IMG/VR virus record: IMGVR_UViG_2675903324_000010
Strand: one strand, 5' to 3'
Origin: a virus
Lineage: Duplodnaviria > Heunggongvirae > Uroviricota > Caudoviricetes
DNA length: 12,688 nt
In this document: positions 1-6,000 of the stretch, one piece after another
Layout: each line of letters starts with the position of its first letter
How positions within the stretch are numbered: position 1 is the first letter of the stretch
Program-made: the position numbers

Positions 1-3000
1 ATGCGTATAGGACAAAATCGTTTTTTGGGGGCTATACACATGTTGCTTTCAGACCTTGCTATCCGTCGCGCGAAGCCAAAAGAGAAAGCCTATACACTCA
101 ATGACGGCAACGGGCTTTCGTTACTCATTGAGCCGAACGGTTCGAAGGGCTGGCGATTGCGATACAGGTTTGCAGGCAAGCCCAAAATGTTGTCGCTGGG
201 TGTTTATCCTGAGGTGTCCCTTTCTGATGCCAGGACGGCAAGGGATGAAGCCAAAAGGCTTATCGCTGGTGGAGTTAATCCGAGTGAGGTCAGAAAGGCC
301 CAAAAGCGAGAACAGGCGAACAAATGCGGCAACACCTTTGAGGCGATCGCCCGTGAGTGGTATGAAAAACGCCTGGACCGATGGTCTCCCTCATATGCAG
401 AGGAAATGATAGAGACGTTTGAAAAAGACGTTTTTCCGTACATTGGAGGTAGGCCCATCGCAGAGATTAAGCCGATGGAATTGCTCGCGGTTCTATCCCG
501 TCTTAATGACCGTGGCGCAACTGAAAAATTGCGTAAGGTTCGCCAGCGATGTGGCGAAGTGTTCCGGTACGCAATAATTACCGGACGCGCTGAATATAAC
601 CCCGCTCCTGATCTGGCAAGCGCATTTGCACCACACAAAAAAGAGCATTACGCGTATCTGAAAGTTGATGAGCTACCGGAATTTTTCCGCGTTTTTAATA
701 CGTACACCGGAAGCCAGATCGTCAAGCTGGGTATGCGATTGTTGATTCTTACTGGACTTCGCCCAGGTGAATTACGGCAGGCAGAGTGGCAGGAGATTGA
801 TTTTGATAATCGTCTGTGGGAAGTGCCGAAAGAACGAATGAAAATGCGCCGTCCTCATTGCGTGCCACTTTCAGAACAGGCGATCGCTATTCTGGAACAG
901 TTAAAACACATGACGGGGCAGTATCCGTTTATTTTCCCTGGTCGAATACAGCACAGTAAGCCGATGAGTGAAATGGCTATGAACGTGCTTATTCGTCGTA
1001 TTGGCTATGCAGGGCGCGTTACTGGTCATGGGTTCCGGCATACCATGAGTACGATTTTGCATGAGCAGGGTTATAACTCCGCGTGGATAGAAACGCAGCT
1101 GGCGCACGTCGATAAAAACTCGATCCGTGGCACATACAATCACGCGCAATACCTGGACGGACGGCGGGAGATGCTCCAGTGGTACGCCGACTATATGGAC
1201 TCACTGGAACAGGGCGGTAACGTGGTGCACGGCAAGTTTGGTGTATGTGCATAAAAACGACTGGACAAGTATACAGATGTATACTAACGTACACGGAAAG
1301 CTACAGGTAATATCCTTACAGATGGTTTTTCACGCAGTTACCCCATCATGTATGGACGGCGCTCCTTGTAACAACGAAGATGGAGTCTTCTACGCAGCTG
1401 AAAAGCTGGATGCTCTTTAACAGCCTTTGGTGCTTTCCTGATGCAGGAAAGAATAGGGATACATGCACCTTTACAATGCATGTAATGATTCACCAATGAG
1501 GCTGCGGAGCGCTGACAAAGCGCAATTGCTCTCTTGCCTGCCCACCATGCCCTGAAAAAGGGCGCTCTTTAAAACTACTGGACGTCACGCCTAATCGTGT
1601 GACCCCGCCGAAAAGCGGGAATAGCTCTACCTTGCTGGAGCATACCAACCACCAACCAAACAATCTGAATTTATCTTATGCAATACCACAACATGTTTTC
1701 ATGTTGTGGTTTTTGTCGTGTTCGTAATTTGACGCAAATAAAACTCTTGCTAAGCCACAGGAGGGGATTTTCGCGTCAACATTAAGGAGATTGATAAATG
1801 GCTAATAACAATTCATTCATCCGTCTTTCTGAGGTTATGCGCCGTACTGGTTACGGTCGCGCATGGATTTATCGCCTGATCAGCCTGGGGCGTTTCCCTA
1901 AACCGGTAAAAATTGGTTCCCGCTCCGTGGCTTTTATTGAAAGTGAAGTCGACGAATGGATTAACCAGCGTATTGATGCTTCTCGCAACAACGCCGCGTA
2001 ATAATCTTTTGGGAGGGGGATATTCTCCCCCAGCACTAAACCTGATTCGATAGCAGGAGTTTTCAATGAAACGTCCGAATGTGCCCGTACAGGGGCAGGG
2101 CTTCGTTCAGCCTGAAATCAGCCAGAACGATATATTGATTCGCCACAAAGCAAAGTCGCGTATTGATTCCCGCCTGTTTGCTGAACGCATCGGCATAAAG
2201 CACAAAAGCCTTTATTCGCTTATTCAGAAGCACAAAACCGGATTGCGTGAACTGGGTATCCTTCCGTTTCAAACGGAGCGATTAAAAACCAATCAACACG
2301 GAGAGCGTGAACATAAGTTTGCTCTGCTGAATAGCGATCAGTTTGATTACATGCGCCATATCGTGAGCCATTTCGCCGCTGAGCGTATGAAACACGTTAA
2401 GCAATACTTAGAGGAGGTTTTATCAAATTATCGCGCTGGTGGCTCTGTACGGCGCGAATATCCGCATGATGCAGGAATGGCAGGCAAAACAAAGGCGACC
2501 ACGAAAGGGTCGCCAGTGGAGATAAAGGAAATCAAGCGCATCACCAACTATGCCATGAGTGTAGCTGGTGGACAAGGCTATCAGCCAGGCGGTCGGTTTT
2601 TAGTGGCTTTTAACCGCCGTGGGTATTTCTCGACAAAATCTTCAAGGGCAAATTTTTTAGCTTTTGTATGTGATGCCTTTGACTCGTCATCACATGTTTT
2701 TCCGCGCCTTATCCTGTTTTCAATAAAACGGGAGGCGGCCTTTTTATTCAGCGATGAATCAATGGGGCTGCTCCCTGTTTGCTGCTCGACAATGGCATCC
2801 ATGAGTAGTTGGTGTTGTAGTTGTCGTAAAAATTTCTCATCTTCTGGTGGTAAATCCATACTTATTTCCTGTACAGCGGAGCGACGCAGCACCTCACACC
2901 ACGGCGCTGATGGTTGTTATTCGTTTTATGGAGTCAGAGAAGCAAAAGCGGATCGCTATCGGTTTTTAGGCGAGATTAATCGCCGTGGGTATTTGTCCAG

Positions 3001-6000
3001 AAATGCCTCAAGCGCAAATCGTTTTGGTCTGGTGAGAGGAGAGGGATTAAGCAAAGACTCGCGTTCCAGGCGTACTTTTTCGCGCTGGCGCTCAAGTATG
3101 GATAATGCGATTTCCTGTAATTCTTCATTTGTCATTGTCTGTACCCGTAAAGCGGTGCGCTGTAGTACCTCATATCACAGCGCAGGTATTTTTTATGGTT
3201 GTAATTTGCGTGATGATTCAGGTCACTTTGCGACACATTGCATAAACATAAATAACGTGATGTTATTATGTGCTTTCAAAGAAAACGCAGGTATTTTTCG
3301 CACAAACTTCTCTCGCAACACATCCGACCACTTAAGCAAAAAAGCGGCATATACTGAGGTTATCCCTTATAAAACGGGGATCGGGCGTAGGAACCCGTTT
3401 AATCAGTACAAGGCGACACAGGCGCGCCCAGCGTCTTTTTTTGTGTCATGCCATCGCGCAACCATACCCAGCGGCAAGGCCCGTACTGTATCTATGGTGG
3501 CGCTGGTGGGGCAGCCGAAAGGCTGGCCGGTTTCCTTGTACGCCGGTATTCCTACCCCCGCCAGCGTCACCGCCCTTTATGAGCGTAGGAACTCCAGCGG
3601 TGACTCCTTAAAACAGTACAAGGAGGCCTTTCACATGGCTGTATCCGCACGCCCTTACTTTGTCTGGCGCTTTATTGCCGTCGGCGCGTCAGAGCATCAA
3701 ATCATCCACGTAACCGCCTGGACGGAACTCGAAGCGCGTAACCGTTGCCCGTCAGGTTGCGTTGCTGTATTCGCCGCCCGTATCCGTCAGGAGGCATCAC
3801 ATGGATAAAAACATGTTGATCGCCTCTTCTTTCGGGCTGTATGATGCCGGAGTCGCCCACATGGCGACCGGGTTTAGCAGCCTGAATACTGTAGCGGACA
3901 GCCGCTTACATTCCGATATGCGGTTTTTTTGCGTCCGTAAACCTACCCATACCCGCATTATGGCGGGGCGTAACGGGGGAGCCTTTGCGCTCGCTGGTTC
4001 CTACAGTACCAGTCTGCTAACCCTGTTACGTCTCGCCACCCCGTTTAGCAGCGTAGTAGCGAGACTCCTTGAAATTACTGTAGGAGCCTTTCACATGGCT
4101 GTATCCGCACGCCCTTACTTTGTCTGGCGCTTTATGCAGTGCCTGACAGGCAGCATTGCAATATTCACCGTTACCGCTGCCACTGAGCGCGAAGCACGCG
4201 CCCAGCTGCCGCACGCACATCTGATTTTTGTCGCCCGTATCCGTCAGGAGGTGACTCATGCTTAAAACCTTCCGCGTCTTTTCCCGTGCCGTTAATGCAC
4301 GCGGCTATACCGTTGGTATCTCGCAGAACGTGAAGGCCGAAAACGTCCAAGCTGCAATCAGCACAGTAATTAACAAATCAGCTAAAGCCGGTTTATCCGG
4401 CGTAATTATCCACGCAGTGACATGTATTCAGGATGAGGAGTAATTCATGTGTGATTTTTCCGATATAACTGTTGATGAAGCAGCAAAAAGCGCAATGCAG
4501 GCAGAACTTATTTGTTCTCTGATGATGGGTAATACAGGTGAAATGACTGAGGGTGAGATTGAGTCATTGCTCGCCCTGATTAAGCAGCTTACAGGTAAGG
4601 CTGGTAGCTGGCTGATTGCTGCATCGGGTGATATGTAATAAGGGAAGAAATAACAGGATGAAATAAATACCAGAGAATTAAAACGTTACATATCAGGAAA
4701 TAAAACGATGAAACGTAAATATTCTGGCTTAACTGCCAGTAGCAAAACTCACCCCGAATTCATGCGCGGGGATATTTATCGCAATGAATACGGTAGCCAC
4801 ATGACGATGATCAGCAGAGGTAAGAAATGAAAAGCGCACCGAACTTAAAAAAACAGCCTCGAGGGAAAAAACACGCCGATACGGAAGTGATTATTTTCGC
4901 TGGCAGTGATGCGTGGGCGCACGCGAAACAGTGGCTGGAGCAGGACGGAAAACTTGCCGGAGATAATATACCGCCCGTCGTGCTGGCTGATGAGCAACTT
5001 AAAGATATTGGCAATCTGCAAATTGTACCCGACGGGCGCAAATCAGCGCGTATATACAAGGCCGGACACCTCGATCAGGTGATGGTCAAAGGCATAGGTC
5101 AGAAGCTGGCGGCGGCAGGCGTACAGGACGCAGACTATTACCCCGAAGGTATGCACCATAACGAGCGACAGAACTGGCGTAACTATCTGGAGACTGAGCG
5201 CAAAAACATTTCTGACGGGCTGGTTATTGAGCTGCCTGTAAAGAAAAAAACATCCGAACAATCAGAGGATGAATTAAAACCCCGCGTTGAATGCCGTCCT
5301 GATGGCGTTTACTGGGTTACGCCAAAGGTTGATAAGCAATCAGGCGAAATTATACGGCCTGAAACGTGGTTATGTGCTTCGGTTGAATTACTGGGCGCTG
5401 GTGTCATTGGTAACGAGCATTACCGCGTGATGCGCTGGACAGATTCGACAACAAATCGGCTTGTCACTATGGCCGTGCCTTGCTGCGGAATAGGCGACAG
5501 TGACGGCTGGCGGTTACTGAAAGCCAACGGGCTTAAAGTCACGACAAACGGAAAACACAGGATCCCCCTGGCTGACTGGATGCAGTTAGGCGGACAGCAT
5601 GAGGAATGGCACTTAAGCACGAAAGCTGGCTGGCACTTTGGCGCGTACATCATGCCGGACGGTACGGTTATCGGCGAATCTGACAAGCCCGTTTTGTTTA
5701 CCGGAAAAAGTGCTGCCATTAACGGTTATTCCGTGGCGGGTACGGCGGATAGCTGGCGCGACAGCGTGGCGCGGCTGGCTGGTGGTAATCCGTTCATGAT
5801 GCTGGGCATAGCGACGTCATTATCCGCGCCATTAGTCGGGCTGGTCGGTGCTGATGGCTTTGGTGTGCATTTTTTCGAAAACTCCACAGCAGGTAAGACC
5901 ACAACACAAAGCGTGGCATCGAGTTTATGGGGTGATCCTGAAGCGCAGCGATTAACCTGGTACGGAACAGCGTTAGGCATTGCTAACGAGGCTGAAGCAC

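What the first reader, a model, noticed from the sequence alone, without database searches (positions are those of the whole stretch)
2581..3135. Tandemly duplicated minus-strand small genes with a conserved K(K/R)FALExFxxKYPRRL C-terminus
Two ~360-bp units (about 2580-2940 and 2950-3200) are diverged copies. Across the conserved block, differences in the minus frame are synonymous or conservative (K/R, V/L, E/D), whereas the same changes in the overlapping + frame are radical. That indicates purifying selection on the minus strand and that these unlisted small ORFs are real. The N-terminal regions have diverged.
Basis: seen in the sequence. Interest (0 to 1): 0.55.

Follow-up and report, generated by a model that had tools for sequence, protein, structure and literature searches.

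The report
Small antisense genes inside anti-termination ORF
Two small minus-strand genes in an E. coli phage-satellite island look real, and they lie antisense inside a long plus-strand reading frame that the island also keeps free of stop codons, so both DNA strands are under constraint.

Summary
Blocks 2593-2667 and 2959-3033 are 75% identical, 366 nt apart. Their differences are mostly synonymous or conservative in the minus frame and mostly not in the plus frame.

The two ORFs (2581-2859, 92 aa; 2956-3135, 59 aa) belong to an uncharacterised small-protein family found only in E. coli and Shigella. Members always sit between alpA and the replication genes of int-alpA-primase-SSB-ProQ-PerC satellite islands, on the opposite strand. 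Each ORF follows a covarying 5'-UTR hairpin, and the unit ends at an intrinsic terminator (2494-2514). In most related islands an Arc-like gene with its own promoter and operators comes first.

A single open frame of 279-584 codons spans the whole cassette in all ten diverged intact islands. Antisense stops number 4 against about 21 expected. This frame resembles phage P4 eta/kil: it follows alpA, holds isrK/C4 immunity RNAs and ends in an Icd-like domain. It is probably kept open so that translation blocks Rho termination. The small proteins' function is unknown; I guess a regulatory role. Nothing has been tested experimentally.

The parts
2956..3135 (-). Small ORF B, 59 aa (MTNEELQ...KRFALEAFLDKYPRRLISPKNR). 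First gene of the minus-strand unit.
   Evidence: Homologues at 76-85% identity are annotated 'hypothetical protein' in E. coli. AlphaFold2 mean pLDDT 81.7, with helix 3-29 and helix 41-48.
2581..2859 (-). Small ORF A, 92 aa from ATG 2859 (MDLPPEDEKF...KKFALEDFVEKYPRRLKATKNRPPG). The GTG at 2892 is an upstream in-frame extension that runs into the hairpin.
   Evidence: P0001 is 93% identical; AGGA lies 8-11 nt before the ATG. AlphaFold2 gives an all-helical model, pLDDT 68.
2593..2667 (-). Conserved C-terminal block, copy A (TKAKKFALEDFVEKYPRRLKATKNR).
2959..3033 (-). Conserved C-terminal block, copy B (TRPKRFALEAFLDKYPRRLISPKNR).
2881..2907 (-). 5'-UTR hairpin before ORF A (GCGCCGUGG / loop UGUGAGGUG / CUGCGUCGC).
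   Evidence: Alignment A3 of 16 instances. 88.9% of cells are paired against 24-56% for slid controls, and 4 pairs show compensatory changes. 128/144 cells pair in the small-ORF-sense RNA against 113/144 in the opposite strand.
3157..3183 (-). 5'-UTR hairpin before ORF B (GCGCUGU / loop GAUAUGAGGUACU / ACAGCGC).
   Evidence: C-G to U-A compensatory change relative to the consensus.
2485..2514 (-). Intrinsic terminator of the minus-strand unit (GGCGACC-CTTTCGT-GGTCGCC followed by TTTGTTTTGC).
   Evidence: The same terminator is found in L004, L009, L013, L016 and L020. Different, non-homologous terminators occupy the same place in L011, L015 and L018/L019.
2066..3808 (+). Eta-like long ORF, 580 codons. 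It has a pRha-like N-terminus (aa 33-96), then a stretch antisense to the terminator, to both small ORFs and to their upstream region, then the isrK/C4 RNA region ('Ash'), and finally an Icd/Kil-like C-terminus (aa 532-575).
   Evidence: Zero stops in this frame against 24 and 37 in the other two plus frames. AGGAG Shine-Dalgarno before ATG 2066, and the stop overlaps the next ORF. Residues 420-580 hit the P4 'cI/ash' ORF at 8195-8683, 35.5% identity, E 2e-7.
1798..2001 (+). alpA-type helix-turn-helix gene directly upstream of the long ORF.
   Evidence: PGAP: helix-turn-helix transcriptional regulator. Phage_AlpA is called at the same position in related islands.
3362..3441 (+). isrK / seqA-like RNA element with terminator (3420-3436), inside the long ORF.
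   Evidence: Rfam RF01394, 51.8 bits (gathering score 50). Terminator.
3490..3577 (+). C4 / P4 CI-like immunity RNA, inside the long ORF.
   Evidence: Rfam RF01695, 81.3 bits, E 4e-15.
3635..3808 (+). Icd-like small protein, which is the terminal part of the long ORF (analogue of P4 kil nested in eta).
   Evidence: PGAP annotation in the 99.6%-identical genome. NCBIfam NF033153, E 2e-15.

Best explanation
Region 2581-3135 holds two tandem paralogues of a real, fast-evolving small-protein gene family found only in E. coli and Shigella. The family architecture is an N-terminal helix, a Pro/Gln-rich linker, a short helix FALExF(V/L)xKY, and a basic tail PRRLK..NRPPG.

Shown, or read directly from the sequence:
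- The two ORFs form a minus-strand unit: hairpin, Shine-Dalgarno, ORF B, hairpin, Shine-Dalgarno, ORF A, intrinsic terminator.
- This unit lies antisense inside the island's long plus-strand ORF (2066-3808), with third codon positions in register.
- The long ORF follows alpA, contains the isrK/C4 immunity RNAs and ends in an Icd/Kil-like peptide, as P4 eta/kil does.
- The minus frame is constrained for its amino-acid sequence.
- The plus frame across the cassette is constrained only to contain no stop codon. This pushes the small genes toward A/G-ending, often rare, codons.

Inferred by analogy with P4 eta: ribosomes must translate through this stretch so that transcription arriving from upstream, past alpA, escapes Rho-dependent termination and immunity-RNA-dependent termination and reaches the replication genes.

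Inferred from context only: the small proteins belong to the island's maintenance or immunity regulatory cassette. In most relatives they are co-transcribed downstream of an autoregulated Arc-like repressor, and they run convergent to the induction transcript. They probably act as a regulator or adaptor whose conserved C-terminus docks on a constant partner.
For: Family and context:
- Exhaustive profile searches find 19 representatives at 50% identity and 59 clusters at 90% identity. Every one of the 59 clusters that carries a source name is from E. coli or Shigella; the 19 come from a library without names. One scan of 185,579 species genomes confirmed only an E. coli and a Shigella flexneri locus.
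- In 13 intact island loci the gene sits between alpA (with or without rha/antA) and the ash/icd/DUF4222/primase genes, on the opposite strand.

Minus frame behaves as coding:
- In the gapless 21-codon block (15 sequences), differences per site at codon positions 1/2/3 are 0.281/0.219/0.472.
- Mean BLOSUM62 of replacements is +0.09 in the sense frame and -0.78 in the antisense frame. Bootstrap difference 0.94, 95% CI 0.25-1.65.
- Control genes alpA, int and DUF927 give +0.37 to -0.13 (sense) against -0.78 to -0.97 (antisense).

Minus-strand signals:
- Terminator at 2514-2494, with non-homologous terminators at the same position in other islands.
- In islands that start with the Arc-like gene, a TGTGTATACT -10 box, island-specific repeats that look like operators, and strong Shine-Dalgarno sequences.
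- Arc-like repressor PHROG hit, E 5.8e-6, and a PQFxxR strand alignment to P22 Arc.
- Hairpin covariation and G-U orientation.

Plus frame kept open:
- Zero stops over 837-1752 nt in 10 mosaic islands. Most pairs share only 5-55% alignable sequence. Other frames carry 6-48 stops.
- Antisense stops inside family ORFs: 4 observed against 21.2 +/- 3.6 expected from synonymous shuffles, and against 13.5 +/- 2.6 from within-gene codon permutation. Control genes: 728 observed, 748 expected.
- Arc-like ORFs: 0 observed against 10.0 +/- 2.5 expected.
- The frame is broken only in decayed islands (L008, L010, L017).
- In most islands the ORF starts at or near the end of the upstream gene, and its stop overlaps the start of the next gene (ATGA in L013).
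- The conserved terminator DNA motif is read in different plus frames in different islands. The plus peptide is therefore not what is conserved there.

Against: - No expression data of any kind were available.
- No sigma-70 promoter-like site was found for the minus unit in the window.
- The window lacks the Arc-like gene that gives the cassette its clearest identity in relatives.
- The position-1 to position-2 substitution ratio (1.29) points the right way, but its bootstrap CI includes 1 (0.85-2.04).
- The N-terminal halves show only a weak coding signal.
- ORF B lacks the terminal RPPG and may be decaying.
- The sequences are related by descent and recombination, so shuffle P-values overstate independence.
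- No domain, fold or literature hit constrains the protein's function.
- Rho dependence is inferred from P4 only.
Confidence: 0.72

Rival explanations
1. Only the long plus-strand ORF is a gene (a Bro/eta-type protein). The minus-strand small ORFs are shadow ORFs that look conserved because third codon positions of the two frames coincide.
For: The plus frame is open in every intact island and is bracketed by translational-coupling junctions. PGAP sometimes annotates it, for example the 550-aa 'Icd-like' protein in L002 and a 90-aa antisense ORF in O157:H7 EC4115. With wobble positions aligned, simple dN/dS cannot separate the frames.
Against: - Replacements are conservative in the minus frame and radical in the plus frame, matching the controls.
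- The plus product in this stretch is Ser/Cys/Arg/Phe-rich with no family hit between residues 97 and 399.
- Minus-strand terminators, promoter-like sites and operator-like repeats, Shine-Dalgarno sequences and G-U-containing hairpins are conserved.
- Minus ORFs have conserved ATG and stop positions, and one neighbour type is Arc-like.
- The plus reading frame shifts relative to conserved DNA motifs between islands.
Confidence: 0.08
2. The small minus-strand genes are real, and the open plus frame is a by-product of their composition (purine-rich third positions, Lys/Glu/Gln/Arg-rich proteins) with no function of its own.
For: For the two window ORFs alone, the chance of no antisense stop is 0.22 and 0.25. 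Third positions are 42% A, which by itself lowers the number of antisense stops.
Against: - Even with codon usage fixed (within-gene permutation), 13.5 +/- 2.6 stops are expected against 4 observed.
- The frame also stays open across intergenic, promoter, terminator and RNA-gene segments, for up to 1752 nt in 10 mosaic islands.
- In most islands it begins at or near the end of the upstream gene and its stop overlaps the start of the next gene.
- It breaks in decayed islands.
- P4 provides a tested precedent for such an ORF.
Confidence: 0.1
3. The conserved 75-nt block is a nucleic-acid element, such as a protein-binding site, a recombination junction between cassettes or an RNA motif, and the ORFs around it are incidental.
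For: The block is the most conserved part of otherwise mosaic units, with several unrelated N-terminal modules joined to it. This fits a recombination hotspot.
Against: - Variation is concentrated at every third base in the ORF's phase (0.47 against 0.22-0.28).
- Distant members keep the peptide pattern with a different DNA sequence, for example P0029 and P0030.
- Net length differences between members are multiples of three.
- The stop codon falls at a conserved position after RPPG.
Confidence: 0.05

Closest known systems
Phage P4 eta/kil translated leader ORF of the immunity region (CI RNA, seqA, t_imm)
   Same: The long ORF follows the alpA/vis homologue. It contains a C4/CI-type RNA and an isrK/seqA-type element. 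Its last approximately 57 codons form an Icd/Kil-like small protein. There is direct sequence similarity to the P4 'cI/ash' ORF. Literature on P4 says translation of eta prevents termination (PMC10111431).
   Different: Here the ORF is 280-585 codons long and carries a pRha-like N-terminus. It runs antisense through a complete opposite-strand gene cassette with its own hairpins and terminator, and in relatives with its own promoter and operators. I found no such antisense genes described within P4 eta in the papers searched, and I did not examine P4 itself. Anti-termination was not tested here.
P1/P7 immI (c4 RNA - icd - ant) and P22 immI (arc / mnt / ant)
   Same: There is a C4 RNA followed by icd. 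Rha/AntA-type genes lie nearby. In related islands an Arc-like ribbon-helix-helix gene is preceded by repeats that look like operators.
   Different: The Arc-like gene and the small-protein gene lie on the opposite strand, inside the translated leader ORF. The window has no Arc-like gene. The KYPRRL protein has no counterpart in P1 or P22: tblastn against 50,697 phage records found nothing.
Long antisense overlapping gene pairs in bacteria (for example, the candidates reported in EHEC; cited from my own knowledge)
   Same: Two reading frames on opposite strands share the same DNA, with evidence of constraint on both.
   Different: Here one partner seems to be selected only for being translatable (no stops), not for its peptide. 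The overlap covers several genes plus their regulatory DNA, and it recurs across mosaic islands.
Gram-negative PICI regulatory region (int-alpA-'Bro zone'-primase)
   Same: Same island type and the same zone (PMC10111431, PMC6092414).
   Different: Published descriptions treat this zone as co-oriented Bro-network genes plus immunity RNAs. They state that a global repressor is unclear. The opposite-strand cassette is not mentioned in the papers I could search.

Membership tests
P4 eta/kil-type translated leader ORF | A long ORF begins just downstream of, or coupled to, the alpA/vis homologue and upstream of the internal immunity promoter. | tested here: met
   ATG 2066 lies 65 nt after the alpA stop, with an AGGAG Shine-Dalgarno. 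In most of the 10 related islands compared, the first start lies within about 55 nt of, or overlaps, the end of the upstream gene. A TATACT -10 box at 3350-3355 lies just before the isrK start at 3362 (read from the sequence).
P4 eta/kil-type translated leader ORF | The ORF contains the CI/C4-type immunity RNA and its seqA-type target. | tested here: met
   Rfam C4 at 3490-3577 (81.3 bits) and isrK at 3362-3441 (51.8 bits), both inside 2066-3808.
P4 eta/kil-type translated leader ORF | The terminal part of the ORF is a small Kil/Icd-type protein. | tested here: met
   NCBIfam phage_ICD_like matches residues 532-575, E 2e-15. PGAP calls 3635-3808 as Icd-like in the 99.6%-identical genome. tblastn hits the P4 region 8195-8683.
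P4 eta/kil-type translated leader ORF | Translation of the ORF suppresses Rho-dependent, immunity-specific termination. | not testable with these tools
   Only indirect support: the frame has zero stops in 10 mosaic islands and is broken in decayed ones.
KYPRRL small-protein family (no curated model exists) | Architecture of N-terminal helix, Pro/Gln-rich linker, (K/R)FALExF(V/L)xK(Y/C/H)PRR(L/M)K, and ...RPPG followed by stop. | tested here: met
   ORF A has all elements. ORF B has all but the terminal RPPG. Profile E-values are 1e-23 to 1e-26.
KYPRRL small-protein family (no curated model exists) | Position between alpA(/rha/antA) and the icd/primase module, on the opposite strand, preceded by the conserved hairpin and followed by a terminator. 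| tested here: met
Arc/MetJ ribbon-helix-helix repressor | N-terminal beta-strand followed by two helices, with sequence similarity to Arc. | tested here: not met
   Neither window ORF matches; they are predicted all-helical. tblastn with the Arc-like proteins of related islands finds nothing in the window's cassette. Arc-like genes exist only in related loci.
Type II toxin-antitoxin pair (ribbon-helix-helix antitoxin plus toxin) | The downstream partner belongs to a recognised toxin family. | tested here: not met
   No Pfam, NCBIfam, PHROG or PADLOC family, and no solved-structure match by sequence or fold, for the small proteins.
Pfam Phage_ASH / 'ash family protein' | A match to PF10554 above its threshold. 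| tested here: met
   Residues 429-528 of the plus ORF, 74.6 bits. The matched DNA is the isrK + C4 RNA region, so the family models the translated leader rather than an independent protein. It does not cover the finding's coordinates.

The most novel reading that the evidence does not exclude
The opposite-strand cassette (an Arc-like repressor where present, plus the KYPRRL protein) is the missing maintenance or repressor module of Gram-negative PICIs. It is deliberately encoded antisense inside the translated anti-termination ORF. Induction would send RNA polymerase and ribosomes head-on through the cassette and shut it off by transcriptional interference or duplex RNA. This would make a strand-collision bistable switch. 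The KYPRRL protein would be its co-repressor or helper-phage sensor. The island's ProQ/FinO protein might act on the conserved hairpins.
Probability: 0.2. Interest if true: 0.85.

Novelty: new variant of a known kind. Interest (0 to 1): 0.62.

Why it matters
If correct, this is a clean natural case of a stretch of up to about 1.5 kb, holding several genes, in which both strands are constrained. One strand is constrained for protein sequence. The other is constrained merely to stay translatable. The cost is visible in the embedded genes' skewed, rare-codon usage.

It would extend the P4 eta/kil anti-termination logic to E. coli PICIs. It would explain why annotation pipelines disagree in this zone: no call, 'Icd-like' giants, 'ash' pseudogenes, or small hypothetical proteins. 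It also offers candidates for the repressor that published work says is unclear in Gram-negative PICIs.

The idea is directly testable with silent-on-one-strand mutations.

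Tried and rejected
- **C4 RNA pairing with the small-ORF ribosome-binding sites.** Suggested by GTACAGGAAA resembling the complement of the C4 loop. RNAduplex energies equal those of shuffled controls (z = -0.55 to 0.34). Rejected.
- **Family and fold searches for the small proteins.** Pfam, NCBIfam, PHROGs, PADLOC, a PDB sequence profile and a Foldseek PDB search gave no meaningful hit. The ZorE hit at E 0.022 is noise.
- **tblastn of a family member.** Nothing in 50,697 phage records. Three hits in 72,556 plasmid records, all large non-mobilizable E. coli replicons.
- **tblastn of the first Arc-like type against phages.** No match, so a planned control on phage copies outside an eta-like ORF could not be run.
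- **Homologues outside E. coli and Shigella.** None found in one genome per species or in 1.84 billion representative proteins.
- **Sigma-70 promoter for the window's minus unit.** None met the scan's criteria. Manual inspection gave only weak candidates.
Rejected as uninformative, because the two frames share third positions. I used position-1 versus position-2 rates and replacement scores calibrated on control genes instead.

Full report
**1. Where the finding sits**

The window is an E. coli genomic island integrated next to a tRNA-Gly gene. A genome 99.6% identical over window 2000-3888 (NZ_AP045181) carries, all on the plus strand: integrase, a helix-turn-helix (alpA-type) gene, an 'ash family' pseudogene, two Icd-like genes, DUF4222, a DUF927 primase, SSB, ProQ/FinO and PerC. 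This is the layout of Gram-negative phage-inducible chromosomal islands, or PICIs (PMC6092414, PMC10111431).

In that genome PGAP annotates nothing between window 2002 and 3259, which is the finding's region. The ORF listing shows two minus-strand ORFs there: 2581-2892 (92 aa from ATG 2859) and 2956-3135 (59 aa). It also shows a 580-codon plus-strand ORF, 2066-3808, that overlaps both.

**2. The observation**

The direct repeat is real: 2593-2667 versus 2959-3033, 75% identity, spacing 366.

| Frame | Codons | Identical | Synonymous | Conservative | Other |
|---|---|---|---|---|---|
| Minus | 25 | 12 | 4 | 5 | 4 |
| Plus | 24 | 10 | 2 | 1 | 11 |

Differences fall 5/4/10 on minus-frame codon positions 1/2/3. 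The 5'-UTR motif is duplicated too. The N-terminal halves do not align. ORF A's N-terminal module also occurs elsewhere without the KYPRRL block. The two genes are therefore modular paralogues.

**3. A real protein family**

Three word-indexed searches and one exhaustive profile search of 1.84 billion representatives found 19 representatives at 50% identity and 59 clusters at 90% identity. Every one of the 59 clusters that carries a source name is from E. coli or Shigella; the 19 come from a library without names. They are annotated as 'hypothetical protein' or not at all. One scan of one genome for each of 185,579 species confirmed only an E. coli and a Shigella flexneri locus.

Members diverge to about 31% identity but keep one architecture. 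It consists of a helix containing I(L/I)ERQREK, a Pro/Gln-rich linker, (K/R)FALExF(V/L)xK(Y/C/H)PRR(L/M)K, and RPPG followed by the stop codon.

AlphaFold2 with the family alignment gives helix 3-29 (pLDDT above 90) and helix 41-48 for ORF B, mean pLDDT 81.7. ORF A gives an all-helical model at pLDDT 68. There is no Pfam, NCBIfam, PHROG, PADLOC, PDB-sequence or PDB-fold match. No paper in the searched library contains 'KYPRRL'.

**4. Which strand is constrained for protein?**

The two frames share third codon positions, so per-strand dN/dS cannot discriminate. I used two measures that can, and calibrated them on alpA, int and DUF927 homologues from the same loci.
- The ratio of substitutions at position 1 to position 2 is 1.34-1.54 in the controls.
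- The mean BLOSUM62 score of replacements in the controls is +0.37 to -0.13 in the true frame, against -0.78 to -0.97 in the wobble-aligned antisense frame.

For the alignment-free 21-codon C-terminal block of 15 family members:
- Differences per site are 0.281, 0.219 and 0.472, a ratio of 1.29.
- Replacement scores are +0.09 (small-ORF frame) against -0.78 (opposite frame).
- Bootstrapping over columns gives a score difference of 0.94 (95% CI 0.25-1.65). The position ratio has a CI of 0.85-2.04.

The N-terminal groups point the same way but weakly. The small-ORF frame behaves like coding sequence. The opposite frame behaves like a shadow frame.

**5. Minus-strand expression signals**

- An intrinsic terminator lies 67 nt past ORF A's stop: GGCGACC-CTTTCGT-GGTCGCC followed by TTTGTTTTGC, at 2514-2494. 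It recurs in five other islands. It is replaced by unrelated terminators at the same place in L011, L015 and L018/L019.
- Every family ORF is preceded by a conserved motif...CAGCGCCGTGGTGTGAGGTACTGCGGCGCATTGCTTTACAGG-N8-10-ATG. It folds into a 9-bp hairpin with a GAGG-containing loop. Across 16 instances, 88.9% of cells pair, against 24-56% for slid controls, and four pairs show compensatory changes. Twenty G-U cells make the helix better in the small-ORF-sense RNA (128/144) than in the opposite strand (113/144).
- In most related islands the cassette starts with a small ribbon-helix-helix gene. One type hits the PHROG 'Arc-like repressor' family (E 5.8e-6) and aligns along its length with P22 Arc, including the PQFxxR strand.
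- Upstream of the Arc-like genes are a TGTGTATACT -10 box, two or three island-specific repeats that look like operators, and strong Shine-Dalgarno sequences.
- The window has no Arc-like gene, and the scan found no promoter for its minus unit. This is the main local gap.

**6. The plus frame is maintained too**

In every intact island examined, one island-strand frame is open across the entire cassette, including intergenic, promoter and terminator DNA. These are ten mosaic versions; most pairs share only 5-55% alignable sequence. The frame carries zero stops over 837-1752 nt, while the other five frames carry 6-48 stops. It is broken only in decayed islands such as the O157 OI-43/48-type remnant.

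| ORF set | Antisense stops observed | Expected |
|---|---|---|
| 18 family ORFs, synonymous shuffle | 4 | 21.2 +/- 3.6 |
| 18 family ORFs, within-gene codon permutation | 4 | 13.5 +/- 2.6 |
| 8 Arc-like ORFs | 0 | 10.0 +/- 2.5 |
| Control genes | 728 | 748 |

The 23 embedded ORFs that lie in intact islands (15 family members and 8 Arc-like) all sit in the same register relative to the open frame. Third positions of the embedded genes are 42% A, against 22% in the control genes, with frequent CTA, TTA, TCA and GTA codons before CAN codons. This fits the register: a purine at the small ORF's third position puts a pyrimidine at the third position of the opposite codon, and such a codon can never be a stop.

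In most islands the open frame starts at or near the end of the upstream gene (alpA, rha or antA), often with a Shine-Dalgarno sequence, and its stop overlaps the start of the next gene. Examples are ATGA in L013 and 3808 against 3801 in the window.

The conserved terminator DNA is read in different plus frames in different islands. No protein family matches residues 97-399. What is selected in this stretch is therefore openness, not a peptide.

**7. What the plus ORF is**

- Residues 33-96 resemble the pRha domain. The match is below Pfam's threshold.
- Residues 429-528 match Pfam Phage_ASH. That DNA is an isrK/seqA-type element (3362-3441) plus a C4/CI-type RNA (3490-3577).
- Residues 532-575 are Icd-like.
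- The last 161 residues hit phage P4 at 8195-8683, the historical 'cI/ash' ORF (35.5% identity, E 2e-7). They also hit c4-icd regions of P1-like phages.

[quoted passage not shown] The window's ORF meets the structural criteria for an eta/kil-type leader ORF. The Rho-related step is inferred.

**8. Synthesis**

They are embedded antisense within an eta-like ORF that must stay translatable. The minus unit is convergent with induction transcription from upstream, past alpA.

The small proteins' function is unknown. My best guess, from their position in an Arc-led, terminator-bounded cassette and from their constant C-terminus joined to variable N-termini, is a regulatory or adaptor role in island maintenance or in interplay with the helper phage. 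Published work states that a global repressor of Gram-negative PICIs is unclear (PMC6092414), and the cassette is a candidate.

**9. Caveats**

- There are no expression data.
- The sequences are related and mosaic, so the P-values are optimistic.
- ORF B lacks the RPPG tail.
- No promoter was found in the window for the minus unit.
- The literature search covers only the held library.

Noticed in passing
window 3349-3808 and 3839-4265: The immunity module is duplicated in tandem: c4-a1b1/isrK-like element, then C4 RNA, then an Icd-like ORF. Rfam places isrK at 3362-3441 and 3852-3930, and C4 at 3490-3577 and 3956-4043. A promoter-like site, TTGATC-18-TATGAT, at 3816-3845 precedes the second set. 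PGAP flags the second Icd-like ORF as frameshifted.
   Followed up: partly
window 3350-3649 (plus ORF residues 429-528): The Pfam Phage_ASH match and PGAP's 'ash family protein' pseudogene lie exactly over the isrK and C4 RNA genes. The protein family seems to model a translated leader that carries RNA genes, not an independent protein. This probably causes the inconsistent annotations seen: pseudogenes, a 550-aa 'Icd-like' protein, or no call at all.
   Followed up: partly
window 3181-3193 and 3286-3298: An exact 13-mer, CGCAGGTATTTTT on the plus strand (AAAAATACCTGCG on the minus strand), occurs twice, 105 nt apart, upstream of ORF B. One copy abuts hairpin B. It is not conserved in L016 or L020. 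It could be an operator or promoter element of the window's minus unit.
   Followed up: no
window 2066-2420 versus L002 3036-4524: Related islands carry a full rha gene (239 aa) and a GIY-YIG nuclease gene, or an antA gene, between alpA and the cassette. The window keeps only a pRha-like N-terminal segment, and it is fused in frame to the long ORF. The rearrangement therefore preserved the open frame.
   Followed up: partly
L007 (O157:H7 EC4115) 3992-4264 versus L008 (O111:H11) 4068-4778: PGAP annotates opposite strands of the same DNA in two genomes. EC4115 gets a 90-aa antisense ORF (WP_001303898.1). O111 gets three tandem small ORFs (WP_000180465.1, WP_001299815.1, WP_001004881.1). The third is a more distant paralogue of the family (MNENKIKRLEQLLQARQREF...FPLEDLIKNNGKK).
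   Followed up: partly
L015 ~3600-3763, L018 ~3600-3763, L019 ~2450-2616, L011 ~3550-3713: Upstream of the Arc-like first gene, each island has its own set of two or three repeats around a shared TGTGTATACT -10 box. Examples are AGGTGTGGCCCAC x2, GGTGTAAGACAC with its inverted copy, TGAATCACA x3, and GGTGAAATACAC x3. The predicted beta-strand residues of the protein also differ between these islands. This looks like co-varying repressor and operator specificities.
   Followed up: no
window 2515-2580 (3' UTR of ORF A) and equivalents in L009, L016, L008: A segment between the stop codon and the terminator is conserved across islands at roughly 70%: ...CCACCAGC-N-ATGGCAT(A/T)GTTGGTGATGCGCTTGATTTCC.... 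It could be a 3'-UTR RNA element. The island encodes a ProQ/FinO-family protein, which typically binds such structured ends. Alternatively, it could be the tail of the pRha-like domain on the plus strand.
   Followed up: no
L005 5847-5920 and L008 6180-6253: The sRNA Esr41 (Rfam RF02676, 103 bits) lies about 1.5 kb from the decayed copies of the cassette in the E. coli and Shigella islands that carry iha.
   Followed up: no
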